This document shows, piece by piece, positions 3 through 15,861 of a DNA stretch of 64,000 nt. The notes under the pieces are model-generated. The model was given only the letters and a program-made list of their open reading frames with translations. It ran no database searches and was not told the origin of the DNA. Both the position numbers and the translations under genes were made by a program. The stretch spans positions 3,200 through 67,199 of the forward strand of contig CALESR010000270.1 of the NCBI GenBank assembly GCA_937907485.1. Direction: 5' to 3'. This DNA is from an uncultured Rhodobacteraceae bacterium. GTDB lineage: Bacteria > Pseudomonadota > Alphaproteobacteria > Rhodobacterales > Rhodobacteraceae. Each line of letters opens with the position of its first letter. Positions within the stretch are counted from its first letter, which is position 1.

Positions 3-743
3 ATCCCCGGCTTTGCCATTCTGGCGGGCTATGAGGCGGTGCGCGTGCTGCGGCCGCTGTTCGTCACGCCCGAGAGGGTTCTGGCCTGCGAGTTCCAGCG
101 CCTTGATGCTGCGCTCTTTGGCTTTGGCAGCGGCCTGACCCCGGCGGATTTCTTTGCCCGCCATCACGGGCTGGTGGCGGATCTGGTCTTTGGCCTGCCC
201 TATACCGTGTTCTGGGCGATGGTGCTGCTGTGGTGCGTGCTGTTGTTCCTGATCTCGCGCGGGCGGTTTCGGCGCTATCTGTGGGTGCTGGCGCTGACGC
301 ATCTGGCGGCCTTTGTCGTCTGGATGCTGCTGCCCGCTGCGCCGCCGTGGTATGTGCGCGCGCATGCCTGCGTCATCGACCTGAGCGTCGCGCCGCAGGC
401 CGCTGCCCTCAGCCGCCTCGATGCGCTGTTCGGCATCCGCTATTTCGAGGCCTTCTATAGCCGCGCGCCCACGGTCTTTGGCGCCTTTCCCTCGCTGCAT
501 GTGGCCTTTCCGGCGGTGGCGATGGTGACGGGCTGGCGCTGGTTCGGTCCGGCGGGGCGGGCCGTCACCGCCGCACTGACCCTGTGGATGATCGCGGCGA
601 GCGTGTATCTCGATCACCATTGGCTGATCGACGGGCTGGCGACGCTGGGGCTGGTGCTGGCGCTGCACGCTGTGCTGGTGCGGCTTTGGCCGGCCTATGC
701 GGCGCCCGATCCGGGCGCGCGCTGGCGCGAGGGGCCGCGATGA
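3..743 (+). CDS. Aur1-like inositol phosphorylceramide synthase / PAP2-superfamily phosphotransferase (5'-truncated by window edge)
   Basis: Frame is open from base 3. Membrane protein with PAAPPWY, VFGAFPSLH and YLDHHWLID, which parallel the fungal Aur1 conserved blocks (PAxxPWY, FGAFPSLH, HHYFVD) including both catalytic His and the Asp. Confidence 0.78.
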   Translation: MPGFAILAGYEAVRVLRPLFVTPERVLACEFQRLDAALFGFGSGLTPADFFARHHGLVADLVFGLPYTVFWAMVLLWCVLLFLISRGRFRRYLWVLALTHLAAFVVWMLLPAAPPWYVRAHACVIDLSVAPQAAALSRLDALFGIRYFEAFYSRAPTVFGAFPSLHVAFPAVAMVTGWRWFGPAGRAVTAALTLWMIAASVYLDHHWLIDGLATLGLVLALHAVLVRLWPAYAAPDPGARWREGPR

Positions 744-1891
744 CCCTGGAAATTCTGCCCGTGCTGGACCGCCGGTTGCTGGCGCAGTTCATCGACCTGC
801 CGCCCGCCCTGTATCAGGGTCTTGCGGGCTTTGTGGCGCCGCTGCGGATGGAGCGGGCGATGATGCTGGACCCGCGCAAGGCGCCGTTCTTTCGGCGCGG
901 GACGGTGCGGTATTGGCTGGCCCGGCGCGACGGGGTGACCGTGGGGCGGATTTCGGCGCAAATCGCCGCGGATCGGCCGGTCGGCGTGCCCGAGGCGACG
1001 GGCATGTTCGGCTGTCTCGATGCGATTGATGATCGCGCGGTGATCGCTGGGCTGATCGCCAAGGCCGAGGGCTGGCTGGCGAGACAGGGTTGCCGCCACG
1101 CCTTTGGGCCCTTCATGCTGAACATGAACGGCGAGCCGGGACTGCTGATCGACGGTTTTGAACAGCCGCCGATGACCCAGACGCCTTGGCACCCGCCCTA
1201 TCTGCGCGGCCATCTCGAGGCTCTGGGCTATGCCAAGTGGAAGGATCTGAATTCGTGGCGGCTCGATCTGCGCGGGGTCGAGGCCGCCACATTGCGCCAG
1301 TCCCTGCGCCTGCCGCGGCGGCGCGGCGAGGTGACCGCGCGGCCGATCACCCGGCGGTCGTTGCGGGCCGACCTGCCGATCCTGCGCGACCTTTACAACG
1401 ACGGCTGGCGCGACAACTGGGGGCATGTGCCGCTGAGCCTCAATGACCTGCAGGGCCTGCGCCTGCTGGCGCCCTTCCTGCCGCGCGAAACCGGCCGGGT
1501 GATCGAAATTGACGGCGCACCCGTGGCGATCTTGCTGGGCATTCCGGACATTTTCGAACTGTCGCGCGGGTTGGGGCCGCGGCCCTCGCCGTTGGGTTGG
1601 CTGCGGCTGGCCTGGCGCTCGCTGCGCTTTCGGCCGCGCAGCGGGCGCATCATCGTGATGGGGATCGCCGCGAACCTTCGCTACAGCGCTGCCGGGGCGG
1701 CGATCCTGTTGACACTGCTCGACGAGATGATCGACCAGCAGCAAGCCCTCGGCCTCGAGGCAATCGAAGGGGGCTGGGTATTGGAAGATAACGTCGCATT
1801 GACACGGCTGCTGGTTCGTTACAACTTTGCCGCCACACGGACTTTTCGCATCTTCGGCAAGACCTTCTCCGACGATGCCAGCCAGGGATAA
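740..1891 (+). CDS. bcerS: GNAT-fold acyltransferase of the YghO/bacterial ceramide synthase (bCerS) family
   Basis: ATG at 740 overlaps the upstream stop (ATGA). Motifs GRISAQI, GMFGCLDAIDD, AEGWL, GPFMLNMNGEPGLLIDGF, PWHPPY, GYAKWKDL, YNDGWRDNWGHVP and GWVLEDN match my recollection of this family. It lies near an SPT-like gene. Confidence 0.68.
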   Translation: MTLEILPVLDRRLLAQFIDLPPALYQGLAGFVAPLRMERAMMLDPRKAPFFRRGTVRYWLARRDGVTVGRISAQIAADRPVGVPEATGMFGCLDAIDDRAVIAGLIAKAEGWLARQGCRHAFGPFMLNMNGEPGLLIDGFEQPPMTQTPWHPPYLRGHLEALGYAKWKDLNSWRLDLRGVEAATLRQSLRLPRRRGEVTARPITRRSLRADLPILRDLYNDGWRDNWGHVPLSLNDLQGLRLLAPFLPRETGRVIEIDGAPVAILLGIPDIFELSRGLGPRPSPLGWLRLAWRSLRFRPRSGRIIVMGIAANLRYSAAGAAILLTLLDEMIDQQQALGLEAIEGGWVLEDNVALTRLLVRYNFAATRTFRIFGKTFSDDASQG

Positions 1892-1898
1892 CAGCTCG

Positions 1899-2240
1899 AT
1901 GACCGACAGCGACGTCAACATGGCCCCACCCGCCGAGCCCGAACGCGGCCCGGCGCCAACCGAGTGGCCGGTCCTGCCCGAAGAGGGGATGCTGGACAAG
2001 ATCCTGAAGATCGTGGTCGACGAGGGCAAGGTCGAGGCCGACGCCGTGCAACCCGTGGCCACCTTGGAATCGCTGGGCCTGATCTCGATCGACGTCATCA
2101 GCATCCTGATGGGAATCGAGGAGGAATTCGACGTCTATCTGCCGATGAGCGAGGAACTCTCCTCGGCGCGCAATCTGGCCGAGTTGATCGCCGTCATGGT
2201 CGCGCAGATGCGGCCGGACGAACTCAAGTCCATCGGCTGA
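1899..2240 (+). CDS. Dedicated acyl carrier protein (start may be 1899, 1920 or 1989)
   Basis: Small acidic protein with ATLESLGLISIDVISILMGIEEEFDV. The 4'-phosphopantetheine Ser is retained, in an atypical ISI rather than DSL context. Confidence 0.8.
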   Translation: MTDSDVNMAPPAEPERGPAPTEWPVLPEEGMLDKILKIVVDEGKVEADAVQPVATLESLGLISIDVISILMGIEEEFDVYLPMSEELSSARNLAELIAVMVAQMRPDELKSIG

Positions 2241-2248
2241 CCGGGGTC

Positions 2249-3466
2249 ATGGTGCGGGTCGCAATCACCGGATTTGGCGCCGTCAGTGCGGCTGGCATCG
2301 GCGCCGAGGCCCTGTGGCAGGCCGCGCGTGACGGGGTGTCGGGGGTGCGGCCGCTGGACATGCCCCGCAGCGAAACGCTGCGCGTGCGCATTGCGGCCGG
2401 TGTGCCGGAGTTTGATGCGGCGGCGTTGCTGGGCGGGTCGGTTCCCCGCACCAGCGAGCGCTTCAGCCAGTTCGCGATGGTCGCCGCCGCCGAGGCCGTG
2501 GCGCAGTCGGGGATCACCGCCGAGCAACTGGCCGGGCGACGCAGCGCGACGATCATCGGCACCGGGGTCGGCGGTGTCGGTACGATCGACGACAATTGTT
2601 ATCTCTTTTACAGCGAACAGCACTCCGGCGTGCGCGGCGAGGCGATGTCGGTGCCGCGCGTGATGCCCAGCTCTGCCGTGTCGCATGTGTCGATTGCGCA
2701 TGGCATCACCGGGCCCAGTTTCGGCATCGTCAGCGCCTGCGCCTCGGGGGCACAATCCATCGGCGTGGCGATGCAGATGATTCGGTCGGGCATGGTGGAC
2801 CGCGCGCTGGCGGGTGGCACCGAGGCCTGCATCACCCCGGTGACGATGCGCGGTTGGGAGATGCTGCGCGTGCTGTCACCGCGCGCCTGCCAGCCGTTTT
2901 CGGCGGACCGCACCGGCATGGTGCTGGGCGAGGGCGCGGCGGTGTTCTTGCTGGAATCCGAGGAGTCGGCCCACGCACGCGGCGCGACAGTGCTGGCGTG
3001 GCTGGACGGCTATGGCACCAGCAGCGATGCGCGCGACATGATCCAGCCCGATGCCGAGGGCGCGGCCACCGCGATGCGCGAGGCACTGGCGGATGCGGGC
3101 GTCACGCCGGGGCAGATCGGCTATGTCAACGCGCATGGCACCGGCACCGTGCTCAATGACGTGAACGAGGCCGCCGCCCTGCGCGCCGTCTTCGGAGAGG
3201 CGATTCAATCGGTGCCGGTGTCGTCGTCAAAGCCGATTCTGGGCCATACGTTGGGGGCCGCCGGGGCGCTGGAACTGGTCGTCGCGGTGCAGGCCCTTCG
3301 GCATCAGATGGTGCCGCCGCAGGTAAACCTGACCCGGCCCGACCCGAAATGTGCGCTGAACCTGCCAACCGGCGCGGCGCAACCGGCCGACCTCGACGCC
3401 GTGCTGTCGAATTCCTTTGCCTTTGGCGGCATCAACGCCGTGTTGCTGGTGCGCCGCGCGCCATGA
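2249..3466 (+). CDS. Beta-ketoacyl-ACP synthase II family (FabF/NodE-like)
   Basis: Catalytic Cys-His-His triad in SACASG, NAHGTGT and GHTLGAAG; C-terminal SNSFAFGGINA. The segment WEMLRVLSPRACQPFSADRTGMVLGEG resembles NodE-type enzymes. Confidence 0.92.
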   Translation: MVRVAITGFGAVSAAGIGAEALWQAARDGVSGVRPLDMPRSETLRVRIAAGVPEFDAAALLGGSVPRTSERFSQFAMVAAAEAVAQSGITAEQLAGRRSATIIGTGVGGVGTIDDNCYLFYSEQHSGVRGEAMSVPRVMPSSAVSHVSIAHGITGPSFGIVSACASGAQSIGVAMQMIRSGMVDRALAGGTEACITPVTMRGWEMLRVLSPRACQPFSADRTGMVLGEGAAVFLLESEESAHARGATVLAWLDGYGTSSDARDMIQPDAEGAATAMREALADAGVTPGQIGYVNAHGTGTVLNDVNEAAALRAVFGEAIQSVPVSSSKPILGHTLGAAGALELVVAVQALRHQMVPPQVNLTRPDPKCALNLPTGAAQPADLDAVLSNSFAFGGINAVLLVRRAP

Positions 3467-3864
3467 GCGCCGCGCCGCGCGCCCTTGGCACCTATGAGGT
3501 CACCGTCGAGGCCGCAGCCGCAGCCGCCCTCGCCGCCGCCTTGGGGCGGAGGGGCCCCGAGGGCCCCGTGCCGCTGACCTATCCGCTGATCTGGCTGGCG
3601 GCGCCTGCCGTCCGTCTGGCCTTGCAGGCCGAACTGGCGGGTGAGGGGGCCCTGGCCCTGCCGGTCCACATTGAACAGCGCATTGCGCTGAGCGCGCCCT
3701 TGGTGATCGGTGCGGCCTATCGGCTGGTTCTGACCCTCGACGGTCCCGATGCGCGGCGCATTCTGCGGCTCGACGGCACGCTGCACGACAGCGCCGGGCA
3801 AGAGGTGGGCACCCTGCGCACCGGCCTTGCACTGGTGGCACTGCCGCAGGGCGCAGGCGCATGA
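3463..3864 (+). CDS. Hot-dog-fold protein, probable non-catalytic partner of the downstream MaoC dehydratase
   Basis: ATGA-coupled to the KS. P(L)TYP and PVHIEQRIALSAPLVIG pattern is typical of MaoC N-terminal/HadA-like subunits; no DxNPxH motif. Confidence 0.55.
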   Translation: MSAAPRALGTYEVTVEAAAAAALAAALGRRGPEGPVPLTYPLIWLAAPAVRLALQAELAGEGALALPVHIEQRIALSAPLVIGAAYRLVLTLDGPDARRILRLDGTLHDSAGQEVGTLRTGLALVALPQGAGA

Positions 3865-4259
3865 GCGGCGCGCTGCCTGTCGGTACGCGCCTGCCGGGTG
3901 TCGATCTGCCGCTGGCCGATGCCGAGGCGGTGCAGGCCTATCTGGCGGTGTCTGGCGATGACAACCCGCTGCACCGCGACCCCTCGATGGCGCGCGCGGC
4001 GGGCTTTGACGATAGTCTGGTGCCGGGGATGCTGGTGATGGGCCAGATGGCCGAGGTGCTGCACAATTGGCCCGCCTGCGCCGCGATCGACTGGATGCTG
4101 TGCCGCTTTGTCGATCCGGTGATCGTTGGCACTGCGCTGCGCTGCGAGGGGCGGGTTGTGGCGCAGGATCCTTCGGGAGGCGTGATCCTGCGGCTGACGG
4201 CAGGGGTCGGGCGGCGCCCTGCTGTGGTGGCCGAGGCGCTCATCCGCCCGTCGCCCTGA
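3861..4259 (+). CDS. MaoC-family (R)-hydroxyacyl dehydratase
   Basis: Hydratase motif SGDDNPLHRDPSMARAAGFDDSLVPGML and RFVDPV; ATGA-coupled to the upstream ORF. Confidence 0.82.
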   Translation: MSGALPVGTRLPGVDLPLADAEAVQAYLAVSGDDNPLHRDPSMARAAGFDDSLVPGMLVMGQMAEVLHNWPACAAIDWMLCRFVDPVIVGTALRCEGRVVAQDPSGGVILRLTAGVGRRPAVVAEALIRPSP

Positions 4260-5367
4260 GGCGTCGGCGCATCCGCCAGCCGCCGATCCCCAGCGCCAGC
4301 GCGCAGCCCCCCAACACTGCGACGGGCAGGCCCCAGGCGGCCCAGACCGGCGCGATGCGCCCGTATTCCCCCAGCGCGGAAAAGACGTTGCCGCCCAGAT
4401 TCAGCGCATAGGCCGCGCCGAGGATGACCAGCGGCGTCATCAGCCCGCGCCGCGCCGCCAGCCAGCGCAGGCTGAGGCTGGCGACCAGCAGCGCCATCGC
4501 CACCATGGCGGCCAAGGCCGCATGGCGCTCGTTCAGTGCGGCGCGATAGGCGTCGGCGGCCGGAACGCCGCCCGCGGCGTGCGCAATGCGCGTCAGTGCG
4601 TCCTGCGGCACCAGGCGGGGCTCGACCCCGGCATGGGCCAGCCAGTCGGTGTTGATGGCCAAGGGCACGCGGGCGTCGCTCGGGCCCCCGGCTGGCCAAG
4701 TGGCATGGGCGCCCGTCAACAGAACGGCGCCGTCAACCGGGCGCGCCTCGTCAGCCCAGATCACCCGCTCCAGCCGGTTTTCGCCGTCCAGAAGGAACAG
4801 CCGCAGATCGACCAGCACCGGCCCTGTGGCCTCGAACCGCAGACCGGCATGGACCAGCGCCGCCCCGAAATCATGCCATTCGGGCGGCGCGCTGCCGCCT
4901 GCGAAGCCTGCGCCGTAATAGCGAAACCCGGCCTCGCCCTGCGCCTTGACGGCATGGGGGCGCACATGGGCCAGCAGCGCGACTTGCGCCAGACCAAAGG
5001 CCACCCCGACCACCAGCGCGGGCATCAGCGACAACAGGGGCGCCCGCCCGGTGTTGGCGATCATCGCGCGCTCGTGCCCGCGTGTCAGGTCGAATTCCAC
5101 CCAAAGGATGCCGATCCCCATGCCGATCGGCAGGATTGCAGGCAAGTTGTAGAGCGCACGCAGCCACAGATACCAGGCCAGACGGGGGGCGCCCTCGGGC
5201 ATCGCGGCCACGCCCTGGGCCGTCAGCACCCGGTCGTAATGCCCGGCCAGATCCAGCGCCAACACCAGCGCCAACGCCAGCGCCACCACCAGCGCGGTGC
5301 GCAGTGCATAAAGCCGGGCGACATAGCGGGTTTCCAGCCCGAAGACGGCGAGCGGCGGGCGGGTCAC
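4240..5367 (-). CDS. LptF/LptG-family permease (LptG-like paralog)
   Basis: GTG at 5367 overlaps the stop of the upstream permease. RYV..Y N-terminus, three N-terminal TMs, LPAILPIG...E..M...G motif, periplasmic beta region, three C-terminal TMs with P..AAW.P. Confidence 0.7.
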   Translation of the reverse strand: MTRPPLAVFGLETRYVARLYALRTALVVALALALVLALDLAGHYDRVLTAQGVAAMPEGAPRLAWYLWLRALYNLPAILPIGMGIGILWVEFDLTRGHERAMIANTGRAPLLSLMPALVVGVAFGLAQVALLAHVRPHAVKAQGEAGFRYYGAGFAGGSAPPEWHDFGAALVHAGLRFEATGPVLVDLRLFLLDGENRLERVIWADEARPVDGAVLLTGAHATWPAGGPSDARVPLAINTDWLAHAGVEPRLVPQDALTRIAHAAGGVPAADAYRAALNERHAALAAMVAMALLVASLSLRWLAARRGLMTPLVILGAAYALNLGGNVFSALGEYGRIAPVWAAWGLPVAVLGGCALALGIGGWRMRRRLRATGG

Positions 5368-7272: not shown

Positions 7273-8261
7273 GACGCCGATTTCGGCCCGGACGGCATCG
7301 CGCCCAGTCCCAGTGCCACCACGCCGACGATCAGCACCGTCACCAGCATGAGGCCTTGATGCAGCACGCCGATGGCGATGGCCTGCGCAGGGGGGGTGCC
7401 CAGCGCGGCATAGGTCGAGACCACCGCCAGGGCCTGTGGGCCCAGATGCACCGGCGCCAGCGGCAGCAGCGACACCAGACTGATCGAGGCCACCGCCAGC
7501 AGCGCCAGCGCGGGCGAGGCCTGAATACCCAGCGCGTGCTGCAGCGCCAGCGCGGCGGCGACCTCGAGCGCCTTCTTGGCCAGCGCCAGTATGGTTCCCG
7601 GCACCAGCACCCGGCGGCGCAGCAACTGCCCGACGTCCGACGCATAGCGGGCGATCACCCCGCCGATCCGCGCCGTCCAACGCTGCCCAAAGCGGCGCAA
7701 AGCGAAGAGCAGCAGGCCCAGTCCCAGCATCCCGGCGGTCAGCGCAAGGGTCGCGTGGCGCAGCGACTCTGGCAGCGGGGCGAGCGCAAGAGCCAGCGCC
7801 AGCAAGGCCAGTTTGGCCGCTCCGGCCAGCACCTGATCGAGGGTCATGACCCCCGTGGCCTCGGCCGGCGTCAATCCGGCATGGGCGTGCAGCGCCGCGG
7901 CCCCCGTGGCGACACCGCCGAGGCCGGACACCGCAAACCGCGCGCCGATCGACAGCGCGACAACCTGCGCCATCACCGGCCAGCGCACCCGGCGCAGCGG
8001 TGCGGCAAGGCACCGCCATTGCCAGACCCAGAGAGGATAGACCGCCAGACTGGCCGCCAGCGCCAGCGCCAGCAAGGCAGAATCTGTCGCGGCCAGTGCA
8101 AGGCCGACCTGCTGCCACGGCGTCAGAACGATCCCCAGAACCAGCAATCCGCCGATGACCAGCGCCGCACCCGCCACCACCAGCCGCCGACCTCGGCCCA
8201 AAGGGCCAGTCGAGCGCAGCGGCGCATGCAGCGAGGCTGCGTCGCGATGTCCTATGCGCAT
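7269..8261 (-). CDS. YbhN/UPF0104 (lysylphosphatidylglycerol synthase TM domain) flippase-like membrane protein
   Basis: Polytopic hydrophobic protein with W.W..L, LPLAPVHLGPQ..AV...Y..LG and A.AIGVLH.G, the typical LPG_synthase_TM layout. Start is uncertain. Confidence 0.68.
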   Translation of the reverse strand: MRIGHRDAASLHAPLRSTGPLGRGRRLVVAGAALVIGGLLVLGIVLTPWQQVGLALAATDSALLALALAASLAVYPLWVWQWRCLAAPLRRVRWPVMAQVVALSIGARFAVSGLGGVATGAAALHAHAGLTPAEATGVMTLDQVLAGAAKLALLALALALAPLPESLRHATLALTAGMLGLGLLLFALRRFGQRWTARIGGVIARYASDVGQLLRRRVLVPGTILALAKKALEVAAALALQHALGIQASPALALLAVASISLVSLLPLAPVHLGPQALAVVSTYAALGTPPAQAIAIGVLHQGLMLVTVLIVGVVALGLGAMPSGPKSAS

Positions 8262-8340
8262 GCCGGGGTTACCAACTGGCTGGTGAAGGGGACAGAAGCT
8301 TGATATCTGGAATTGTTAGTCAAATCAGGATGAGAAAGCA

Positions 8341-9423
<1,083 letters not shown>

Positions 9424-9444
9424 GGGCGGTGGCGACAGGGGCGG

Positions 9445-10677
9445 ATGATGGGCGAGGGCGCGGCAACCGGACGGTCGTTCAACGAGGTGATGGGCAAGCG
9501 CATTGCCCGCGCGTTTCAGCGCGTTGCCGAGGGGATGAGCGCCGACGAGTTCAACCGCTCTGGCGCGCGGGAGGCCTTTTTTGCCCCGATCGACGCATTG
9601 GAGTCCGCGACCACGGCGCAAGGTGGGCAGTTTCTCAGCTTTGGCCATTACGACTATCTCGGGTTGACGCGGCACCCTGCGGTGATCGAGGCGGGGGTGG
9701 CGGCGCTGCGCCAGCATGGCAGCGGTGCGGGCGCCTCGCGGCTGGTCGGCGGCGAAAGGCTGGCCCACCGCGCGCTTGAAACCGCGATGGCGCGGTTCCT
9801 CGGGGTGGATGCGACGCTGGCGGTCATCAGTGGGTATCTGACCAACCTGTCGCTGATCCCGCATCTGCTGACCGCAAAGGATCTGCTGATCCTCGACGAT
9901 CTGGCGCACAACTCGATCGCCAGCACGGCCCGCATTGGCGGTTATGCCTGCCGGACCTTTGCTCACAACGATTGCGACGCGCTCGAACGTATCCTGACCA
10001 CGGAACGTGCCCGCTATCGCCATGTGCTGATTGTCACCGAGGGGCTGTTCTCGATGGATGGCGACATCCCGGACCTGCCGCGGATTCTGGCGCTCAAGGA
10101 GGCCCACAACGCCTGGCTGATGCTGGACGAGGCGCATTCCTATGGCGTGCTGGGGGCGACAGGGCGCGGCATCACCGAACATTTCGGCGTCGATCCGCGA
10201 CGAGTCGATATCTCGGTCGGCACGTTGTCCAAGAGTTTCGGCGCCTCGGGCGGGTTGATCGTCGCCGCCGAGCACGTCATCGAATGGCTGCGTTATACAC
10301 TGCCGGGCTTTGTGTTCAGCGTCGGCCTGTCGCCGGTTGCCGTGGCGACGGTGCATGCGGCGCTGGATCTGCTGATCGCCGAGCCCGAGCGACTGGCCCG
10401 CATGAACGAGGCGTCGCGGTATTTCCTGGCGCAGGCGCGGGCGGCGGGGCTGAACACTGGCCCGGCGATCGGAACGGCGGTGGTGCCGGTGATCTTTGCC
10501 GATACCCAGCAAACCATGCTGGCGGCCCGGCGGCTGCGCGAGGCGGGCATTTATGCCCCGCCGGTGGCGACGGTCGGCGTGCCCTCGGACAGTCCGCGCA
10601 TTCGGTTTTTCCTGACGGCGAATCACACAACCGCCGATATCGACCGCGCGATAGCCGTGCTGGTCGGGTCAGCCTGA
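9445..10677 (+). CDS. PLP-dependent alpha-oxoamine synthase, serine-palmitoyltransferase-like (RkpG/WcbT-type)
   Basis: YDYLGL, SGYLTN, DLAHNSI, EGLFSMDGD, DEAHSYG, and PLP-lysine motif GTLSKS. The family is certain; serine/acyl substrate is inferred from context. Confidence 0.85.
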   Translation: MMGEGAATGRSFNEVMGKRIARAFQRVAEGMSADEFNRSGAREAFFAPIDALESATTAQGGQFLSFGHYDYLGLTRHPAVIEAGVAALRQHGSGAGASRLVGGERLAHRALETAMARFLGVDATLAVISGYLTNLSLIPHLLTAKDLLILDDLAHNSIASTARIGGYACRTFAHNDCDALERILTTERARYRHVLIVTEGLFSMDGDIPDLPRILALKEAHNAWLMLDEAHSYGVLGATGRGITEHFGVDPRRVDISVGTLSKSFGASGGLIVAAEHVIEWLRYTLPGFVFSVGLSPVAVATVHAALDLLIAEPERLARMNEASRYFLAQARAAGLNTGPAIGTAVVPVIFADTQQTMLAARRLREAGIYAPPVATVGVPSDSPRIRFFLTANHTTADIDRAIAVLVGSA

Positions 10678-11484
10678 CGGGCCTTCGCCCTCGCCCGGAT
10701 CGGGGGCACTGCCGGTGTGTTTCAGACTGTAGGTCAGGATGCGGTCGACCAGCGCGTCTGGCGCCAAGGCCCCCAGCGCCACCGCCAGCCGCAGGGGCCA
10801 GGGAAAGGCGCTGATTCGCGCGCCGCGCGCGACGTCGTGGGCGATGCGCTGCGCCGCGCGCTCGGCGCTCCACAGCCAGGGGCGCGGGGTGGTCAGCGAC
10901 TGGCTCATCGGGGTATCGACAAAGCCCGGCAGCACCAGCGTCACCGCAACACCCTGCGGGCGCAGCAACCGGCGCGTCCCCTCGGCATAGATCCTGAGGG
11001 CGGCCTTGGACGCGGAATAGACCGGCGCCTGCGGCAACCCGATGCCCCCCTGAACCGAGCCGATGATGACCACATGCCCGGCGCCGCGTTGCGCCATGCG
11101 GGGCTGCAAGGGAGTCAACGTGTTCAGCACGCCCATCATGTTCACCGCCATCAGGTCGCGGGCCTGCGCGCCCCGCTCGCCGCCCGGTGGCGCCAGTGCG
11201 CGCCCGCCGCCCAGGCCCGCCCCGGCGATCACCAGATCGACCGCTTGCCGCTGGTCGCACCCCTCGATCCAGGGTTCCAGGCGGTCGTGGTCGGTGACGT
11301 CGATGCGGGCGGCCTCGACCGTGGCGCCGCGCTGGCGGCAGGCCTCGGCAGTGGCGGCCAGCCGCTCGGCGTCGCGGCCATTGAGCGACAGCGCACGACC
11401 CGGCGCGGCGTAATGCAGCGCCAGCGCACGGCCGATGCCGCTGCTCGCGCCGGTAATCAGCACATGCTGGGGTTTGGTCCGCAT
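10669..11484 (-). CDS. Classical short-chain dehydrogenase/reductase (RkpH/WcbP-like; candidate 3-ketosphingoid reductase)
   Basis: ITGASSGIG, catalytic YSASK, PGFVDTPM; AAGGAG Shine-Dalgarno upstream of ATG 11484. Confidence 0.85.
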   Translation of the reverse strand: MRTKPQHVLITGASSGIGRALALHYAAPGRALSLNGRDAERLAATAEACRQRGATVEAARIDVTDHDRLEPWIEGCDQRQAVDLVIAGAGLGGGRALAPPGGERGAQARDLMAVNMMGVLNTLTPLQPRMAQRGAGHVVIIGSVQGGIGLPQAPVYSASKAALRIYAEGTRRLLRPQGVAVTLVLPGFVDTPMSQSLTTPRPWLWSAERAAQRIAHDVARGARISAFPWPLRLAVALGALAPDALVDRILTYSLKHTGSAPDPGEGEGPSG

Positions 11485-11604
11485 TGAGGGCTCCTTGCCC
11501 TGTGGTGGTATCACGCGCGCCGGGTTCCTCGCCAGTCGGAACGACGGGATGGCGGCTTTGTCGGCCTGTCGCTATGCTGGCCGCGCCGCCAGAAGGGGTC
11601 TGCC

Positions 11605-12207
11605 TTGCGCATCCATGAACCGTTCGTCGAACCCGTTGCCCGCCGTCTGGTGGGGTCCGGCATCAGCCCCGATGCGCTGACGCTGGCCTCGGTGCCACCG
11701 GCGGTGCTCGCCGGGGTCTGCGCGGCCGTCGGCTGGTTCGAGGCGGCGGCGCTGGCCTTCACACTTAGCGGTGTGCTCGACCTGCTCGATGGGGCGCTGG
11801 CGCGGGCGATGGATCGGCGCAGCCGGTTCGGCGCCTTGCTCGATTCGTCGCTTGACCGGGTCGCGGATGCCTGTGTGCCGATCGGGCTGGTGGTGTTTTA
11901 CAGTGCGCAGGGCGGGCTGGCCGCAATCCCGGCGCTGGCGCTGCTGGCGTCGCTGTGGGTCTCGTATATCCGCGCGCGGGCGCAGTCGCTGGCGCTGGAA
12001 CTGCCCCGGCTGTGGATGCGCCGCGAGGACCGCTTTGTCGCGCTGGTGCTGGCGCTGCTGGCGGCGCGCTGGGTGGCGCCCGAGTCTGACGTGCCCGCGG
12101 TGCTGCTGCTGTGGGTCTGCGCTGCCATCGCGGTTCTGGGGATGATTGCCGGTGGCATGGCGCTGGTGCAGGCGGCACGACTGGCCCGTCAACCGCCCGA
12201 GGCGTGA
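11605..12207 (+). CDS. CDP-alcohol phosphatidyltransferase, probable phosphatidylinositol-phosphate synthase
   Basis: Signature DLLDGALARAMDRRSRFGALLDSSLDRVAD, plus SYIRARAQSL and RREDR as in PIP/AIP synthases. Near ino1. TTG start is uncertain. Confidence 0.88.
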   Translation: MRIHEPFVEPVARRLVGSGISPDALTLASVPPAVLAGVCAAVGWFEAAALAFTLSGVLDLLDGALARAMDRRSRFGALLDSSLDRVADACVPIGLVVFYSAQGGLAAIPALALLASLWVSYIRARAQSLALELPRLWMRREDRFVALVLALLAARWVAPESDVPAVLLLWVCAAIAVLGMIAGGMALVQAARLARQPPEA

Positions 12208-13070
12208 TTGCCCCAGTCCGCCGCAAAGACCGCGATGGCCGTGGCGTCATTCTGGCCCGAGCGGTTTGGCCCGTCGGTCAGCGCCTGAATCGCCGAGGCG
12301 AGGGTCTCGACCGGAAAGCTGCGGGTCGGCACCACCAGCCGCGGCACGCCGCGCCGCGCCAGATGCCCCGAGACCCAGACATCATCGACCCAGCGCACGG
12401 CCTCGGGCATGCCCGAGAAATCGTGCACCGCCGCATCCAGCGCCCTCGGCGGCAGCAGATAGCCCCAGGTGCCAAACAGGATATCGACCGGGACCAGCCG
12501 GGTCTGCGCACTGCACAGAACGTGGTGCAGCGCGGGAAACTCTCGCCCCGGCGTCAGGCACACGCCACGCAGGCCCAGCGCGGCGGTGGGGTTCGCCCGG
12601 TGTGCAGTCAGCAGCGAGGCCAGAAAATCGCGCGGATAGACCACGTCATCATCGACAACCACGAGGCAGGCGTCGGGGTCAGCCGCCAGTGTTGGCAACA
12701 GCTTGGTCACCGGGCCTTCGTCGGTGCAGCGCAGCACCTCGACACCGGGCGGCAGACCCAGCGTCTGTGGGTCAGGATAGGCCGCGCCGTCGCGTCGGCG
12801 GGTCCGGGGCAGGCACAGCACGATGCGGTCGGCGGGCTGGGACTGGTCGATCAGACTGCGCAGGACGCGGTGCAGCCGATGCGCGCGGGCGGGAATCGTG
12901 GTCAGCGTCACCACCAGCCGTTCGGGCCGCGGTGTGGCGGGCACTGGAGCGGGCACCCGCCAGCCCAGCCGCAGCGCCCGCAGATACAGCCCGGCGATCT
13001 GCGCCAGACTGGGCTGGCGATAGCGCGCAAGACTGCGGGCGATGTTTTGCAACAGGGGCACTTTGGTCAT
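12189..13070 (-). CDS. GT-A fold glycosyltransferase (GT2-like)
   Basis: VVTLTTIPAR, LRSLIDQS, DEGPVTKLLP, acidic VVVDDDVVYP, late DDVWVSG. ATG at 13070 is coupled to the upstream stop. Confidence 0.7.
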   Translation of the reverse strand: MTKVPLLQNIARSLARYRQPSLAQIAGLYLRALRLGWRVPAPVPATPRPERLVVTLTTIPARAHRLHRVLRSLIDQSQPADRIVLCLPRTRRRDGAAYPDPQTLGLPPGVEVLRCTDEGPVTKLLPTLAADPDACLVVVDDDVVYPRDFLASLLTAHRANPTAALGLRGVCLTPGREFPALHHVLCSAQTRLVPVDILFGTWGYLLPPRALDAAVHDFSGMPEAVRWVDDVWVSGHLARRGVPRLVVPTRSFPVETLASAIQALTDGPNRSGQNDATAIAVFAADWGNHASGG

Positions 13071-13840
13071 GGCGCCCAGACCTCGGCCGCGGGGCGCCAG
13101 ACCGGCGCGGCAAAGGGATTGACCAGGCGATTGCGCTCGATCCAGCGGCGGGTCAGCGAGGGGCGGGGCAAGCCTGCGTCCTTCCAACTGCCCTGCGTCA
13201 GGTGGCGGGTGACGATGTGGCGGTTCACTGGCCAGATGTCGGGATAGTCCAGCGGCGCCATGAGTTGGATCTGCGCGCCGATCCAGACCTCGGGCCAAGG
13301 GCGTTCTTGCAACAGGCGGGTCAGCATCCGGGGCCCGGTGATGTCCTCGATCCGGTGCCGGGGGGGCTGGGGTTCGGCGGCGAACAGCGCAAAGGCCCGC
13401 TCGATCGCCGCGCGCAGGAGTGGATGGCCGGGCCGGGTTGCCAGAATGCAATTGGCGATCTGCAGCGGCTTGAGATAGCCCAACTCGCGCTGACGCCGGG
13501 CGCCCAGATGCGCCTCGATCGACAGCGAGCATGGGCGCGCGAACAGGTCAGGCGGCAAGGGGCGCAGGGGTTGCATGTCGATATCGGCATAGAGCCCGCC
13601 ATCGCGCCACAGCACGGCCAGCCGGAACACATCGGCGCGCATCACGCCAAAGGGCATCGCGTCAAAGGCGGCGAGGTGCTGGGGCGCGACCTCGGCCAAC
13701 ACCGCGCGGCTGGCGTCGTCGTCGTATAACCGCAGCTCCAGGCCCGGGTTGAGCCGTGCCCAATCCGCACGCAGGGCCTCGGCCTGGGGCGGCAGTCGGG
13801 CCGTTTTCCAGGTTTGCGACAGGATGCGGGGCAGGGGCAT
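13067..13840 (-). CDS. GT32 glycosyltransferase (Och1/Sur1 DXD sugar-binding family)
   Basis: LPRILSQTWKT, RADVFRLAVLWRDGGLYADID, ANCILATRPGHPLL, ITGPRMLT and HLTQGSW are GT32 hallmarks. Confidence 0.87.
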   Translation of the reverse strand: MPLPRILSQTWKTARLPPQAEALRADWARLNPGLELRLYDDDASRAVLAEVAPQHLAAFDAMPFGVMRADVFRLAVLWRDGGLYADIDMQPLRPLPPDLFARPCSLSIEAHLGARRQRELGYLKPLQIANCILATRPGHPLLRAAIERAFALFAAEPQPPRHRIEDITGPRMLTRLLQERPWPEVWIGAQIQLMAPLDYPDIWPVNRHIVTRHLTQGSWKDAGLPRPSLTRRWIERNRLVNPFAAPVWRPAAEVWAP

Positions 13841-13971
13841 GGGATATCCAGCAGGGATCAGCGCGCAGGATACGGTGACCGGCGCAGGGTTTCAACCGGC
13901 GCGGCATCGCGGCCAATTGCACAGGGTGCGCCTCGCGGTCTAGGGTCGGGTGCACGACAAAGGACCGCCCT

Positions 13972-14691
13972 GTGACCCACCGTCCCATCGCCTATATGAC
14001 CGTCGATGCCGAACCCGATTGCCCGCCCTTCCTGTGGACATGGCGCGGCATCGACGAGGGGCTGCCGCTGCTGCTGGACCTGCTGGCGGACGAAGGTGTG
14101 CCCGCGACCTTTTTCACCACGGGCGGCACCGCCGAGGCCCGGCCCGAGGCCGTCACTGCCATCGTCAAGGGCGGGCACGAACTGGCCTGCCACGGCTATT
14201 CGCACAGCAATTTTCGCACGCTTGACCGCGACGCCGCCCGCGACGAGATCACCCGCACCAACGCGATTCTGCGCGCGCATGCCCCGGTAACCTCGTTTCG
14301 CGCGCCGTATCTGTCCTTTCCCGAGGCCTATGTCCCGCTGCTGGCCGAGGCCGGGTTTGCCGTGGACAGCTCGCGCGGGATCTACAAGCGCAACGAGCCG
14401 CGCCATGACGGCGACGGGATGCCCTTTCGGCTGGATGCGTCGGTGACGTCGAGCGTGCTGCGCCTGCCGCGCGTGCTGCGCAGCCCGTATTTTCATGCGC
14501 TGCGCAGTCCGGTCACGCTGTTCGTGCATCCTTGGGAATTCGTCGATTTGTCGCGCACGGGTATCCGGCTGGACTGCCGGTTCCGCACCGGGCAACCCGC
14601 GCTGGACCGGCTGCGCACCACGCTGCGCTGGTTCAAGGCGCGCAATTTCCAGTTTCGGCTGGTGAACGAGGCACCGGCCCTAGCCGCCTGA
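13972..14691 (+). CDS. NodB-type polysaccharide/glycolipid deacetylase
   Basis: MTVDAE, VPATFF, GHELACHGYSH, SFRAPY, FVHPWEF. Confidence 0.85.
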   Translation: MTHRPIAYMTVDAEPDCPPFLWTWRGIDEGLPLLLDLLADEGVPATFFTTGGTAEARPEAVTAIVKGGHELACHGYSHSNFRTLDRDAARDEITRTNAILRAHAPVTSFRAPYLSFPEAYVPLLAEAGFAVDSSRGIYKRNEPRHDGDGMPFRLDASVTSSVLRLPRVLRSPYFHALRSPVTLFVHPWEFVDLSRTGIRLDCRFRTGQPALDRLRTTLRWFKARNFQFRLVNEAPALAA

Positions 14692-15777
14692 GGCCATCTG
14701 CCGATAGAGCGCCAGATGCTGCGCCGCAACTTTGGGCCAGTCAAAACGCCCAAGGGCGGGGCGCGGACCGGTCAGCCGCCGGGCCAGGTCGGAATCCATG
14801 GCCAGCGCCTGCAGCGCCTCGATCATGGCAGCGTCGCTGTCGCACAGAAAGCCGTCCTCGCCGTCGCGGATGAACTCGGCCAGACCGGTGCCCGCGCGGC
14901 CGATCACCGGCAGCCCGGCGGCGCGGGCCTCGAGCGCGGCGATGCCAAAGGATTCGTTGCGCGACGGCAGGACAAAGGCATGGGCGCTGCGATAGAGGGT
15001 GCGCAGATCCTCGCGGCCCAGCCAACCGGGGTTTTGCACGCCGGCGCCCAGCGTGGCGCGGTGACGTCCCTCACCGGCGACCACCATCTCGACGGGCCGG
15101 TCGATGCGCCGTTCCAGAGCCTCGCGCAGCCTTCCCAGCACCTGTGGCCGTTTCTTGCGCTCGAGTCGCATTGCCGAGACCAGCCGAAAAGCTCCCCCGG
15201 CAGGCGGTTGCGCGGGGTCGGCCATCCAGAACCCGGCGTCAAAGCCATTGGGCAGAACCTGTGGCGCGATGGTGGACAGTGGCGCCAGTTGTGCCGCGAT
15301 TCGGGAACTGACCGCTGTCAGTCGCACGTCCGGCCACCGCGGACCCAGCCAGCGCAGCAGGGGTGCCAGCGCCGCCAGATCGGAATGCGCGGTCAGCATC
15401 ACGGGCAGGCCCAGACTGCGCGCGGCGATCAGCCCGGCGAGGCAGGCGGGCGCGACGATGCTGGCATGAACATGCACCACATCGGGCGCGATCGCGGTCA
15501 GCGCTGTCGCCATCCGCCGCACCAGCCGGGGCGACACCGCAAGGTCAAACCCCGGCAACCGCAGCCCGCCCGGTGAAAAAACCGCAACCTCGTCGCTGCG
15601 CGCGCCAGGCTGCGGGGTCAGGACGCTGACCTGCGCCCCCGCAGCGGTCAGCGCCCGGCCGAGGCCGGACAGGTGGCTCTCGATGCCGCCACGGCGCGGG
15701 GCAAACCAGTCGCTGACAAAGGTGATCTTCAGACCTCGGGTCGGGGCAAAGGCCGCTTCGGCAGGCATTGTCGGCAA
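14680..15777 (-). CDS. GT4 glycosyltransferase, PIG-A/PimA-like
   Basis: N-terminal FVSDWFAPRRGGIESHL, DVVHVHAS...TAHS, and GT4 EX7E motif ESFGIAALE. Confidence 0.9.
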   Translation of the reverse strand: MPTMPAEAAFAPTRGLKITFVSDWFAPRRGGIESHLSGLGRALTAAGAQVSVLTPQPGARSDEVAVFSPGGLRLPGFDLAVSPRLVRRMATALTAIAPDVVHVHASIVAPACLAGLIAARSLGLPVMLTAHSDLAALAPLLRWLGPRWPDVRLTAVSSRIAAQLAPLSTIAPQVLPNGFDAGFWMADPAQPPAGGAFRLVSAMRLERKKRPQVLGRLREALERRIDRPVEMVVAGEGRHRATLGAGVQNPGWLGREDLRTLYRSAHAFVLPSRNESFGIAALEARAAGLPVIGRAGTGLAEFIRDGEDGFLCDSDAAMIEALQALAMDSDLARRLTGPRPALGRFDWPKVAAQHLALYRQMASGG

Positions 15778-15861
15778 CTCCGGGCGCGGGCGGCAAAGGG
15801 CGGGAAATCTTTACGCCCTAGGGCGACATGATATCAGCGCAGTGCAGCCCCGTCGCGCGTA

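What the first reader, a model, noticed from the sequence alone, without database searches (positions are those of the whole stretch)
1899..4259. Private type II chain-building module (ACP + NodE-like KS + HadAB-like dehydratase pair) with no enoyl reductase
Seen: ACP, KS, a hot-dog subunit without the catalytic motif and a MaoC subunit with it, the last three ATGA-coupled, and no ER nearby. Established: NodE/NodF build alpha,beta-unsaturated acyl chains, and mycobacterial HadAB is a catalytic + non-catalytic hot-dog heterodimer. Inference: the module gives the SPT-like enzyme (or bCerS) a special acyl-ACP. A trans-2-enoyl-ACP condensed with serine would yield a 4E-unsaturated, sphingosine-type base without a desaturase. 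It may also be a discrete type II counterpart of the RkpA/WcbR type I PKS that usually accompanies RkpG/H-like genes.
Basis: inference. Interest (0 to 1): 0.62.

Follow-up and report, generated by a model that had tools for sequence, protein, structure and literature searches.

The report
Private acyl-chain line for bacterial ceramide
Four tightly packed genes (a private acyl carrier protein, a chain-extending enzyme and a two-part dehydratase) are real, are conserved as a unit in about 75 alphaproteobacterial genomes, and most likely build the fatty chain that a ceramide-synthase-like enzyme attaches to a sphingolipid, rather than making a sphingosine-type double bond as first proposed.

Summary
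ACP (1899-2240), a FabF-type ketosynthase (2249-3466), a hot-dog protein without the catalytic motif (3463-3864) and a MaoC/HadB-like subunit with it (3861-4259) end a six-gene operon: PAP2, bCerS-like GNAT, ACP, KS, HadA-like, HadB-like. No enoyl reductase lies nearby.

ACP-KS-HadA'-HadB' recurs in about 75 genomes in four cluster layouts. All but one carry a bCerS-like gene.

The evidence ties the module to the bCerS-like N-acyltransferase rather than to the SPT-like enzyme:
- In Reyranellaceae the operon is bCerS-like-ACP-KS-HadA'-HadB', while SPT sits elsewhere with its own AasR-CerR-AcpR set.
- In L011 a type I PKS precedes the oxoamine synthase, yet the module is kept.
- bCerS-likes of module genomes lie on one side of a 99/98 branch, whereas their oxoamine synthases are polyphyletic.
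- Four cultured homologues of the GNAT have ACP-KS nearby, directly downstream in three.

The single SDR travels with the oxoamine synthase, so KR and ER are probably borrowed from FAS-II.

The 4E-sphingosine idea is disfavoured: a DEGS-like desaturase co-occurs with the module in at least 19 of the mapped loci.

The chain's chemistry is unresolved. This genome lacks AcpR and AasR, so the ACP may also feed the synthase.

The parts
3..743 (+). PAP2_3 / phosphoinositol-ceramide-synthase-like gene, 5' end cut by the window. First gene of the operon; ATGA-coupled to the next gene.
   Evidence: PF14378 6.6e-15; NF052609 1.5e-27, below cutoff; ATGA at 740-743
740..1891 (+). bCerS-like GNAT N-acyltransferase (383 aa), the proposed acceptor enzyme for the module's acyl-ACP.
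   Evidence: 34% identical over its full length to p379 of L013. Homologues sit in or beside canonical SPT clusters (AasR-CerR-AcpR in L149 and L150; AcpR and CerR hits in L151), or downstream of ACP-KS-HadA'-HadB' operons. The type D member hits PF00583. Tree.
1899..2240 (+). Private acyl carrier protein (113 aa).
   Evidence: PF00550 5.9e-6. The Ser in LGLISID aligns with AcpP Ser36. The family motif ...VY[LI]PM is shared by all module ACPs and is distinct from AcpR.
2249..3466 (+). FabF-type (KAS II) elongating ketosynthase with a complete Cys-His-His set.
   Evidence: Only 42% identical to the genome's housekeeping FabF-like gene on C50.
3463..3864 (+). HadA-like non-catalytic hot-dog subunit (133 aa).
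   Evidence: No hydratase motif. The family conserves VPxTFPxxWL and PVHxxQ. AF2 pLDDT 93.4, hot-dog fold, with HadA/HadC chains among the top PDB matches. The type D member passes PF13452 (34 bits against a cutoff of 22). Fusions exist with the catalytic half.
3861..4259 (+). HadB-like catalytic MaoC dehydratase subunit (132 aa).
   Evidence: PF01575 6.5e-15. D33 and H38 are invariant in 26 relatives. PDB matches: HadB 5zy8_B at 5.6e-10 and 4v12 at 1.5e-10.
9445..10677 (+). SPT-like alpha-oxoamine synthase of the cluster (context; a possible second client of the ACP).
   Evidence: 49% identical to the type B AOS. It lies in a clade that is sister to the PKS-adjacent (RkpG-like) AOS clade.
10669..11514 (-). 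Classical SDR, orthologous to the SDR that follows HadB' in type B operons. Probably the 3-keto reductase partner of the AOS rather than the module's KR.
   Evidence: 47% identical to SDR13. SDRs of 42-46% identity sit next to PKS-AOS pairs in genome neighbourhoods without a module. No equivalent SDR adjoins the module in type D, where CerR is present instead.

Best explanation
The four genes form a private type II chain-building line whose main partner is the bCerS-like N-acyltransferase encoded just upstream in the same operon.

Proposed mechanism (all steps are inferred; none is shown biochemically):
1. The private ACP is loaded with malonate by the general FabD.
2. The FabF-type KS takes an acyl primer from the bulk pool and condenses it onto malonyl-ACP*. 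This moves a chain onto the private carrier with a two-carbon extension, once or repeatedly.
3. The general FabG reduces the 3-keto group.
4. The HadA'/HadB' heterodimer dehydrates the 3-hydroxyacyl-ACP*.
5. Either FabI completes the cycle, or the chain stays 2-enoyl. The first outcome gives a longer-than-bulk saturated chain and is my leaning, at about 0.35 absolute. The second I put at about 0.2.
6. The cytoplasmic bCerS-like GNAT transfers the chain from ACP* to the amino group of the long-chain base, giving the amide chain of an inositol-phosphoceramide-type lipid.

This genome has no AcpR, AasR or PKS next to its oxoamine synthase. The same ACP* may therefore also feed that enzyme.
For: 1. 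The unit ACP-KS-HadA'-HadB' is conserved in about 75 genomes in four cluster layouts.
2. Of 17 module genomes with no bCerS-like gene in the flank, 16 carry one elsewhere.
3. Type D genomes, three independent Reyranellaceae-type MAGs:
   - The operon is bCerS-like-ACP-KS-HadA'-HadB'.
   - SPT lies on another contig, in a canonical AMP-ligase(AasR)-epimerase(CerR)-ACP(AcpR)-SPT cluster.
   - There the module cannot be the usual SPT loader.
   - The bCerS-like gene in the operon is the only one in those genomes.
4. L011 keeps the module although a fully reducing type I PKS directly precedes its AOS. L018 keeps GNAT-ACP-KS-HadA'-HadB' and shows the start of such a PKS.
5. Trees:
   - The 33 bCerS-likes from module genomes lie on one side of a 99/98 branch, against 7 from genome neighbourhoods without a module.
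   - The AOS of module genomes fall into at least three separate lineages.
6. Starting instead from the GNAT:
   - Labrys neptuniae, Aestuariivirga litoralis and Novosphingobium album have ACP-KS directly downstream.
   - Pararhodospirillum oryzae has ACP-KS about 5 kb away on the other strand.
7. The SDR tracks the AOS rather than the module. The module therefore has neither a KR nor an ER of its own, as in the rhizobial AcpXL/FabZXL/FabFXL set (own knowledge).
8. FabD, FabG, FabZ and FabI homologues exist in this genome.
9. bCerS is cytoplasmic in Caulobacter (PMC11087976), which is compatible with an ACP-bound donor.
Against: - No biochemical datum exists for any member.
- Caulobacter bCerS works with acyl-CoA in vitro (own recollection of Stankeviciute et al. 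2022).
- No GNAT-ACP fusion was found among the 120 listed homologues.
- In type B and type C loci the GNAT is not adjacent to the ACP. In type C the AOS is the immediate convergent neighbour of HadB'.
- This genome, and five of the eight other type A-C genomes searched, lack any AasR match (E <= 1e-40); the three methanotroph genomes that match do so at only about 37% identity. Their AOS clade is sister to a clade fed by PKS-ACP. An ACP-bound donor for the AOS is therefore plausible here.
- One module genome (Boseaceae, L050) has no bCerS-like gene.
- The set of no-module bCerS-likes in the tree is small (7), and the tree is unrooted.
Confidence: 0.52

Rival explanations
1. The module is the acyl-ACP supplier of the SPT-like oxoamine synthase, giving an ordinary saturated chain. 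It would replace the AcpR/AasR pair of Caulobacter-type pathways, or the RkpA-like PKS of the sister clade.
For: - This genome has no AcpR, CerR or AasR orthologue; the best AMP-ligase hit is 27% identical.
- Type A and C genomes and most type B genomes lack AasR.
- There is only one private ACP in the cluster.
- The window's AOS clade (A+B, 100/98) is sister to AOS that sit behind a PKS ACP domain.
- In type C the AOS is the direct neighbour of HadB'.
- PMC9386255 reports that SPT in these bacteria goes with a specialised ACP.
Against: - Type D genomes have both the canonical AasR-CerR-AcpR-SPT cluster and the module, and the module is in an operon with the bCerS-like gene.
- L011 has the module and also a PKS directly feeding its AOS; L018 shows the start of such a PKS.
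- The module tracks the bCerS-like lineage and not the AOS lineage.
- G380, of the same family, has the closest AOS (59% identical) with MIPS and an SDR, but neither the module nor a bCerS-like gene.
Confidence: 0.25
2. With no ER, the module releases trans-2-enoyl-ACP to the SPT-like enzyme. Condensation with serine then yields a 4E-unsaturated (sphingosine-type) base without a desaturase.
For: - No ER lies in or near any module locus except inside the L011 PKS.
- This genome has no DES homologue.
- The dehydratase pair is private.
Against: - A Lipid_DES/FA_desaturase gene lies in the same cluster as the module in at least 19 type B loci, so module and desaturase are not alternatives.
- The module also lacks its own KR, so borrowing from FAS-II is already required, and FabI is present.
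- The type D SPT has its own AcpR/AasR.
- ACP-KS occurs without the dehydratase pair in N. album and P. oryzae.
Confidence: 0.06
3. The module makes the starter unit for a downstream synthase, or a lipid unrelated to ceramide. The link to sphingolipid genes would then be only co-regulation of outer-membrane lipid genes.
For: - In L011 the order ACP-KS-HadA'-HadB'-PKS-AOS on one strand would fit a starter supply. The PKS begins directly with a KS domain.
- The Boseaceae locus L050 has the module with MsbA-like and MacAB/HlyD exporters and no bCerS-like gene.
Against: - A PKS is present in only 2 of about 75 module loci, and none lies near the module in this genome.
- The bCerS-like gene is present in all but one module genome tested.
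Confidence: 0.08

Closest known systems
AcpXL / FabZXL / FabF1XL-FabF2XL / LpxXL cluster of rhizobia (very-long-chain fatty acid of lipid A; own knowledge)
   Same: It combines a private ACP, private KS and private dehydratase with a dedicated acyltransferase for an outer-membrane lipid. It has no private KR or ER, and those steps are borrowed from FAS-II.
   Different: The dehydratase there is FabZ-type, whereas here it is a MaoC-type heterodimer. There are two KS there and one here. The acceptor there is lipid A via LpxXL, whereas here it is presumably a sphingoid base via a GNAT. No sequence comparison was run here.
AcpR / AasR specialised ACP system of SPT (Caulobacter crescentus; PMC9386255)
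   Same: It is a dedicated ACP inside a bacterial sphingolipid cluster that delivers an acyl chain to a ceramide-pathway enzyme.
   Different: The loader there is an AMP-forming ligase, whereas here it is a condensing enzyme plus a dehydratase. The ACP families are distinct. In type D genomes both systems coexist, with AcpR beside SPT and this ACP beside the bCerS-like gene.
Mycobacterial HadAB / HadBC (3R)-hydroxyacyl-ACP dehydratases of FAS-II
   Same: Two adjacent small hot-dog genes are involved. Only the second carries the hydratase-2 Asp/His motif, and they act with a KAS on ACP-bound chains. HadB is the best solved stand-alone match to the catalytic subunit. HadA and HadC chains are among the top fold matches to the other subunit.
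   Different: Sequence similarity is far below family cutoffs: HadB 44 bits against 203, and HadA-type 22.5 bits against 200. The host is an alphaproteobacterium and the pathway is not mycolate synthesis. Heterodimer formation was not shown.
NodF / NodE (rhizobial Nod-factor polyunsaturated acyl chain)
   Same: It pairs a private ACP with a private FabF-like KS whose product goes to an N-acyltransferase, while the remaining steps are borrowed.
   Different: There are no nod genes nearby. The KS matches plain FabF best. NodFE has no private dehydratase pair. No NodE reference was compared.
RkpA/RkpG/RkpH (WcbR/WcbT/WcbP) PKS-oxoamine synthase-SDR sets
   Same: The window's AOS and SDR are nearest to AOS and SDR genes that sit beside such type I PKS genes.
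   Different: There is no such PKS next to the window's AOS. The module is not its substitute, because L011 carries both, and L018 shows the start of such a PKS. The names rest on my recollection of those loci; no named Rkp or Wcb sequence was compared.

Membership tests
KAS II / FabF ketosynthases | Cys-His-His catalytic triad, conserved Lys and the C-terminal GFGG-type Phe gate over a full-length thiolase fold | tested here: met
   Full-length alignment to 1j3n (E 9e-94) with ACASG, NAHGTGT, SSSKPILGHTLGAAG and NSFAFGG.
KAS II / FabF ketosynthases | Score above the curated equivalog cutoff (housekeeping FabF) | tested here: not met
   TIGR03150 scores 401 bits against a cutoff of 494. PRK07314 scores 386.3 against 387. 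The genome has a separate FabF-like gene on C50, 42% identical.
NodE | Encoded with nodF among nod genes | tested here: not met
   The neighbours are PAP2, GNAT, LptBFG, MIPS, AOS, SDR and glycosyltransferases. There are no nod genes.
HadAB-type heterodimeric (3R)-hydroxyacyl-ACP dehydratase | Catalytic subunit with the hydratase-2 motif (Asp and His) | tested here: met
   The motif is Y27-x2-V-S-G-D33-D-N-P-L-H38-x5-A. D33, N35, P36 and H38 are invariant in 26 relatives.
HadAB-type heterodimeric (3R)-hydroxyacyl-ACP dehydratase | Adjacent non-catalytic hot-dog partner lacking the motif | tested here: met
   The 3463-3864 product is a single hot-dog (pLDDT 93.4). It has no conserved Asp/His motif and no invariant acidic residue. 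It overlaps its partner gene by ATGA.
HadAB-type heterodimeric (3R)-hydroxyacyl-ACP dehydratase | The two subunits form one double hot-dog enzyme | tested here: inconclusive
   Natural fusions of about 285 aa join a PLTFP/HxxQ half to a YxAASLDxNPLH half. No multimer prediction or pull-down was possible.
HadAB-type heterodimeric (3R)-hydroxyacyl-ACP dehydratase | Sequence membership (NCBIfam HadA / HadB equivalogs) | tested here: not met
   HadB NF010246 scores 44 bits against a cutoff of 203. Dietz_HadA NF040621 scores 22.5 bits against 200.
AcpR (specialised ACP of SPT) | Sequence kinship with AcpR, and adjacency to AasR and SPT | tested here: not met
   An AcpR-like query from L153 finds nothing in the window or its genome. 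The ACP here adjoins the GNAT and the KS, not an AMP-ligase.
Acyl carrier proteins | Four-helix PP-binding domain with the phosphopantetheine Ser | tested here: met
   PF00550 scores 26.9 bits against a cutoff of 20.8. The Ser is present in every aligned sequence that covers the site and aligns with AcpP Ser36. Modification by a PPTase was not testable.
bCerS (bacterial ceramide synthase), for the proposed partner at 740-1891 | Homology to the GNAT found in canonical spt-acpR-cerR-aasR clusters | tested here: met
   Relatives 32-38% identical to the two bCerS-like queries sit beside canonical-type clusters in L149-L151: AasR-CerR-AcpR-AOS in L149 and L150, and CerR-AcpR-AOS in L151. No named Caulobacter sequence was compared, and activity is not testable here.

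The most novel reading that the evidence does not exclude
A distinct subfamily of bacterial ceramide synthases is acyl-ACP-dependent. It receives a purpose-built amide chain (very long, or 2-enoyl or 3-oxygenated) from its own carrier system, which is loaded by a ketosynthase and not by a ligase. This would be a second dedicated ACP system in bacterial sphingolipid synthesis, the N-acyl counterpart of AcpR/AasR. GNAT-ACP-KS would be its core and the HadAB-like pair a frequent add-on.
Probability: 0.45. Interest if true: 0.65.

Novelty: new variant of a known kind. Interest (0 to 1): 0.55.

Why it matters
Bacterial ceramide synthesis is currently described with three enzymes (Spt, bCerS, CerR) plus the AcpR/AasR loader for Spt. 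The donor of the second acyl chain has not been given a dedicated supply.

This module would be such a supply. It is an exception to the published statement that SPT in these proteobacteria always comes with an ACP and an acyl-CoA-synthetase-like gene (PMC9386255).

The question is directly testable, because cultured carriers exist: Labrys neptuniae, Aestuariivirga litoralis, Methylocystis parvus, Methylosinus sp. Sm6, Beijerinckia sp. L45 and Novosphingobium album.

It also predicts unusual amide chains in inositol- or hexosyl-ceramides of methanotrophs and wastewater Rhodobacteraceae. That bears on outer-membrane biology and on lipid biomarkers.

Tried and rejected
- Word-based homologue search for the HadA-like protein found only 2 relatives. 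The exhaustive profile search was needed and gave 183 representatives.
- The search for related loci with the HadA-like alignment failed because no stretch was conserved enough. The HadB-like alignment worked.
- The HadA-like profile in a 400-genome class sample hit only the window's own genome. No module-versus-bCerS contingency table could be made from that sample.
- Thioesterase reading of the HadA-like protein. Fold search mixes 4HBT thioesterases with HadA chains, and 6 of 35 members weakly hit 4HBT_2. I rejected this reading for three reasons: no acidic residue is conserved; 10 of 35 members, and the type D member, hit the MaoC N-terminal family; and fusions to the catalytic half exist.
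- SDR as the module's own ketoreductase. I rejected this because the same SDR lineage accompanies PKS-AOS pairs without the module, and no equivalent SDR adjoins the module in type D.
- HadB-like hits in G380, G224, G244 and G370 proved to be lone MaoC genes without ACP, KS or HadA'.
- A search for a GNAT-ACP fusion as a Rosetta stone found none among the 120 listed homologues.
- Five literature searches found no description of this module.
Full report
**1. The observation**

The window is high in G+C, about 69%. It is positions 3200-67199 of contig C270 of a 3.6-Mb, 394-contig assembly. Earlier notes call the organism a wastewater Rhodobacteraceae bacterium.

Six genes on the + strand form one tight string:

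| Gene | Coordinates |
|---|---|
| PAP2_3 / phosphoinositol-ceramide-synthase-like | 3-743 |
| 383-aa GNAT-like protein | 740-1891 |
| ACP | 1899-2240 |
| ketosynthase (KS) | 2249-3466 |
| 133-aa hot-dog protein | 3463-3864 |
| 132-aa MaoC protein | 3861-4259 |

- ATGA overlaps join PAP2 to the GNAT, the KS to the hot-dog gene, and the hot-dog gene to the MaoC gene.
- The other two junctions have spacers of 7 and 8 nt.

Evidence for each gene:
- The ACP passes PF00550.
- The KS has both ketoacyl-synthase domains. It aligns end to end with Thermus FabF 1j3n (E 9e-94), with Cys, His, His, Lys and the Phe gate in place. It scores below the FabF equivalog cutoff, 401 against 494 bits. It is only 42% identical to the genome's own FabF-like gene.
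- The MaoC protein carries the full hydratase-2 motif with D33 and H38.
- The 133-aa protein has no Pfam hit and no such motif.
- No enoyl reductase lies within 10 kb in the near-identical locus L003.

**2. The two hot-dog proteins**

- The catalytic subunit's best solved stand-alone relative is mycobacterial HadB (5zy8_B and 4rlj_B, E about 6e-10). A fused double hot-dog, 4v12, scores slightly better.
- The other subunit is rare.
  - A word-based search found 2 relatives.
  - An exhaustive profile search found 183 representatives among 1.84 billion.
- The family conserves VPxTFPxxWL and PVHxxQ and has no invariant acidic residue.
- With 35 sequences, AlphaFold2 gives a confident single hot-dog (pLDDT 93.4).
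- Foldseek places HadA and HadC chains of HadAB and HadBC among the top matches (TM about 0.6), mixed with 4HBT thioesterases.
- Ten of 35 members weakly hit the MaoC N-terminal family PF13452. A Reyranellaceae member passes its cutoff.
- Several relatives of about 285 aa are natural fusions of this half to a half with the hydratase-2 motif.

I therefore read the pair as a HadAB-like heterodimer. This is similarity of design, not membership: the NCBIfam HadA and HadB scores are far below cutoff.

**3. The module is a conserved unit**

A scan of 185,579 species genomes with the HadB-like alignment returned 80 loci. tblastn mapping shows ACP-KS-HadA'-HadB' in about 75 of them. All are Alphaproteobacteria by record title, except one MAG labelled Archangium that is nearly identical to the Phreatobacter loci. 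Metagenome contigs add more.

| Layout | Taxa | Gene arrangement |
|---|---|---|
| A | Rhodobacteraceae, Rhodobiaceae; includes the window | PAP2-GNAT-ACP-KS-HadA'-HadB', with LptBFG-like genes, inositol-phosphate synthase and a CDP-alcohol transferase |
| B | Beijerinckiaceae, Methylocystaceae and others; cultured carriers include Methylocystis parvus, Methylosinus Sm6 and Beijerinckia L45 | ACP-KS-HadA'-HadB'-SDR-GT2-GT21, often followed by a convergent AOS-GNAT-desaturase operon |
| C | Phreatobacter | Inositol and Lpt genes, GT32, then the module, with the AOS convergent on HadB' |
| D | Reyranellaceae-type MAGs | GNAT-ACP-KS-HadA'-HadB' |

I clustered all unassigned ORFs of 86 loci. The 30 most recurrent clusters showed glycosyltransferases, DUF4833-like and PgpA-like genes and syntenic housekeeping genes, and no enoyl reductase. 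This rests on reading 20 representative translations by eye, not on a Pfam scan.

**4. Which SDR?**

- The window's only cluster SDR (10669-11514, minus strand) is 47% identical to the SDR that follows HadB' in layout B. It is that SDR's best hit in this genome.
- SDRs of the same identity level (42-46%) sit beside AOS genes that follow a type I PKS, in genome neighbourhoods with no module.
- In layout D the module has no comparable SDR next to it. An epimerase-type reductase sits by the SPT instead.

The SDR thus travels with the oxoamine synthase and is probably the 3-keto reductase of its product. The module proper has neither a KR nor an ER. This weakens 'no ER' as evidence for an enoyl product, because borrowing from FAS-II is needed anyway.

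**5. Which enzyme does the module serve?**

Five lines point to the bCerS-like GNAT.

- (a) Three independent layout D genomes keep SPT on another contig, in a canonical AMP-ligase, epimerase, ACP, SPT cluster (Pfam; orthologues). This is the Caulobacter AasR-CerR-AcpR-Spt arrangement (PMC9386255). Their only bCerS-like gene is the one heading the module operon.
- (b) In L011 a 2501-aa fully reducing type I PKS directly precedes the AOS. The module is retained upstream in the same string. L018 keeps GNAT-ACP-KS-HadA'-HadB' and shows the start of such a PKS.
- (c) In a tree of 40 bCerS-like proteins, the 33 from module genomes lie on one side of a 99/98 branch. The 7 from genome neighbourhoods without a module lie on the other. 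The AOS of module genomes fall into separate lineages:
  - an A+B clade (100/98) that is sister to the PKS-adjacent clade;
  - the PKS-adjacent clade itself (L011);
  - a long-branched Phreatobacter group;
  - canonical SPT (layout D).
- (d) Of 17 module genomes with no bCerS-like gene in the flank, 16 have one elsewhere.
- (e) Starting from the GNAT instead:
  - Labrys neptuniae has GNAT-ACP-KS-HadA'-HadB'-SDR-GT21x3 plus an AOS.
  - Aestuariivirga litoralis has GNAT-ACP-KS-HadA'-HadB'.
  - Novosphingobium album has GNAT-ACP-KS only. Its ACP is 43% identical to the window's.
  - Pararhodospirillum oryzae has SDR-ACP-KS about 5 kb from the GNAT on the other strand, followed by an HlyD-like gene and no dehydratase pair.

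GNAT-ACP-KS therefore looks like the core, and the dehydratase pair a frequent addition. bCerS is cytoplasmic in Caulobacter (PMC11087976), so an ACP-bound donor is feasible.

**6. What speaks the other way**

- This genome has no AcpR, CerR or AasR orthologue.
- AasR orthologues were found only in layout D genomes among 15 tested.
- The window's AOS clade is sister to AOS that are fed by a PKS ACP domain.
- The cluster holds only one private ACP.

It therefore remains quite possible that ACP* also feeds the AOS here. In addition:
- No GNAT-ACP fusion was found.
- One Boseaceae genome has the module with exporters and no bCerS-like gene.
- G380, of the same family, has the closest AOS (59% identical) with MIPS and an SDR but neither the module nor a bCerS-like gene. 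This fits the GNAT link, but it is a single case.

**7.

- 4E-sphingosine through an enoyl-ACP is disfavoured.
  - A Lipid_DES/FA_desaturase gene lies in the same cluster as the module in at least 19 layout B loci.
  - The module is not the SPT's supplier in layout D.
  - The dehydratase pair is dispensable in two lineages.
- The 'type II counterpart of RkpA' idea fails on L011, and on L018 as far as that locus reaches.
- 'NodE-like' has no specific support.
- The general idea of a special acyl-ACP for a ceramide enzyme, with bCerS named as an option, stands.

**8. Mechanism and its limits**

I propose that the KS acts as a gateway. It moves a bulk acyl primer onto malonyl-ACP* with extension. 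FabG, HadA'/HadB' and perhaps FabI then process the chain, and the GNAT unloads it onto the sphingoid amine.

The closest design precedent is the rhizobial AcpXL set: a private ACP, KS and dehydratase plus a dedicated acyltransferase, with KR and ER borrowed, making a very long chain (own knowledge). On that basis I lean to full cycles and a longer-than-bulk chain. A 2-enoyl or 3-oxygenated chain cannot be excluded. Every catalytic step is inferred.

**9. Novelty**

- Five literature searches found no description of this module.
- PMC9386255 states that SPT in these bacteria always co-occurs with an ACP and an ACS-like gene. This cluster has the ACP but a KS and dehydratase instead.
- Earlier notes of this scan saw the layout B operon in methanotrophs and read it as a replacement for AcpR/AasR. 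The layout D and tree results here shift the likely client to the bCerS-like enzyme.

I rate it a new variant of a known kind.

Noticed in passing
L156 (Novosphingobium album, GCA_022832385.1) 9001-11743; L158 (Pararhodospirillum oryzae) 2144-4718: The private ACP-KS pair occurs without the HadA'/HadB' dehydratase pair. N. album has GNAT-ACP-KS followed by a convergent GT4. P. oryzae has SDR-ACP-KS followed by HlyD- and FtsX-type exporter genes.
   Followed up: partly
L124 (G380:C2:485501-505500), same family as the window's genome: The closest AOS (59% identical) sits with inositol-phosphate synthase, an SDR and Lpt-like genes. The genome has neither the module nor a bCerS-like gene. This may be an inositol lipid built on a free or otherwise acylated amino-alcohol.
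   Followed up: partly
L050 (Boseaceae bacterium BT-24-1) 8061-15778: ACP-KS-hot-dog-MaoC lies next to an MsbA-like ABC exporter and a HlyD/MacB set. The genome has no bCerS-like gene. It is the one exception to the module-bCerS link.
   Followed up: partly
Own genome contig C376: 2222-3439 and 9172-9495: A third KS paralogue (31% identical) and a weak MaoC paralogue (30% identical) lie about 6 kb apart. This could be another private chain-building cluster.
   Followed up: no
Own genome contig C89: 4852-9765: A type I PKS-like gene with a KS-AT region 36% identical to the L011 PKS. It has no oxoamine synthase beside it.
   Followed up: no
L060 (record labelled Archangium gephyra MAG): This locus is nearly identical to the Phreatobacter loci in both the AOS and GNAT trees. 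The Myxococcota label is probably a binning error.
   Followed up: no
G344:C6:11640-12770, G034:C14:274468-275568, G409:C3:1559869-1560999, G411:C8:578512-579645: These bCerS-like reading frames contain one in-frame TAG each. They may be pseudogenes or sequencing errors. In G344 and G034 the interrupted copy is the one beside a PKS-AOS pair.
   Followed up: no
L052 7284-8351 (-), L010 11133-11699 (-), L090 4094-4732 (-): DUF4833-like genes recur in 15 module loci and PgpA-like genes in 9, mostly in the inositol-type clusters. They are candidates for inositol-lipid steps such as PIP dephosphorylation.
   Followed up: no
The housekeeping acpP is probably lost in an assembly gap.
   Followed up: no
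L159 (Labrys neptuniae) 2362-2913: A FA_hydroxylase (PF04116) gene lies 6 kb upstream of the GNAT-ACP-KS-HadA'-HadB'-SDR-GT21x3 operon. It may hydroxylate the ceramide.
   Followed up: no
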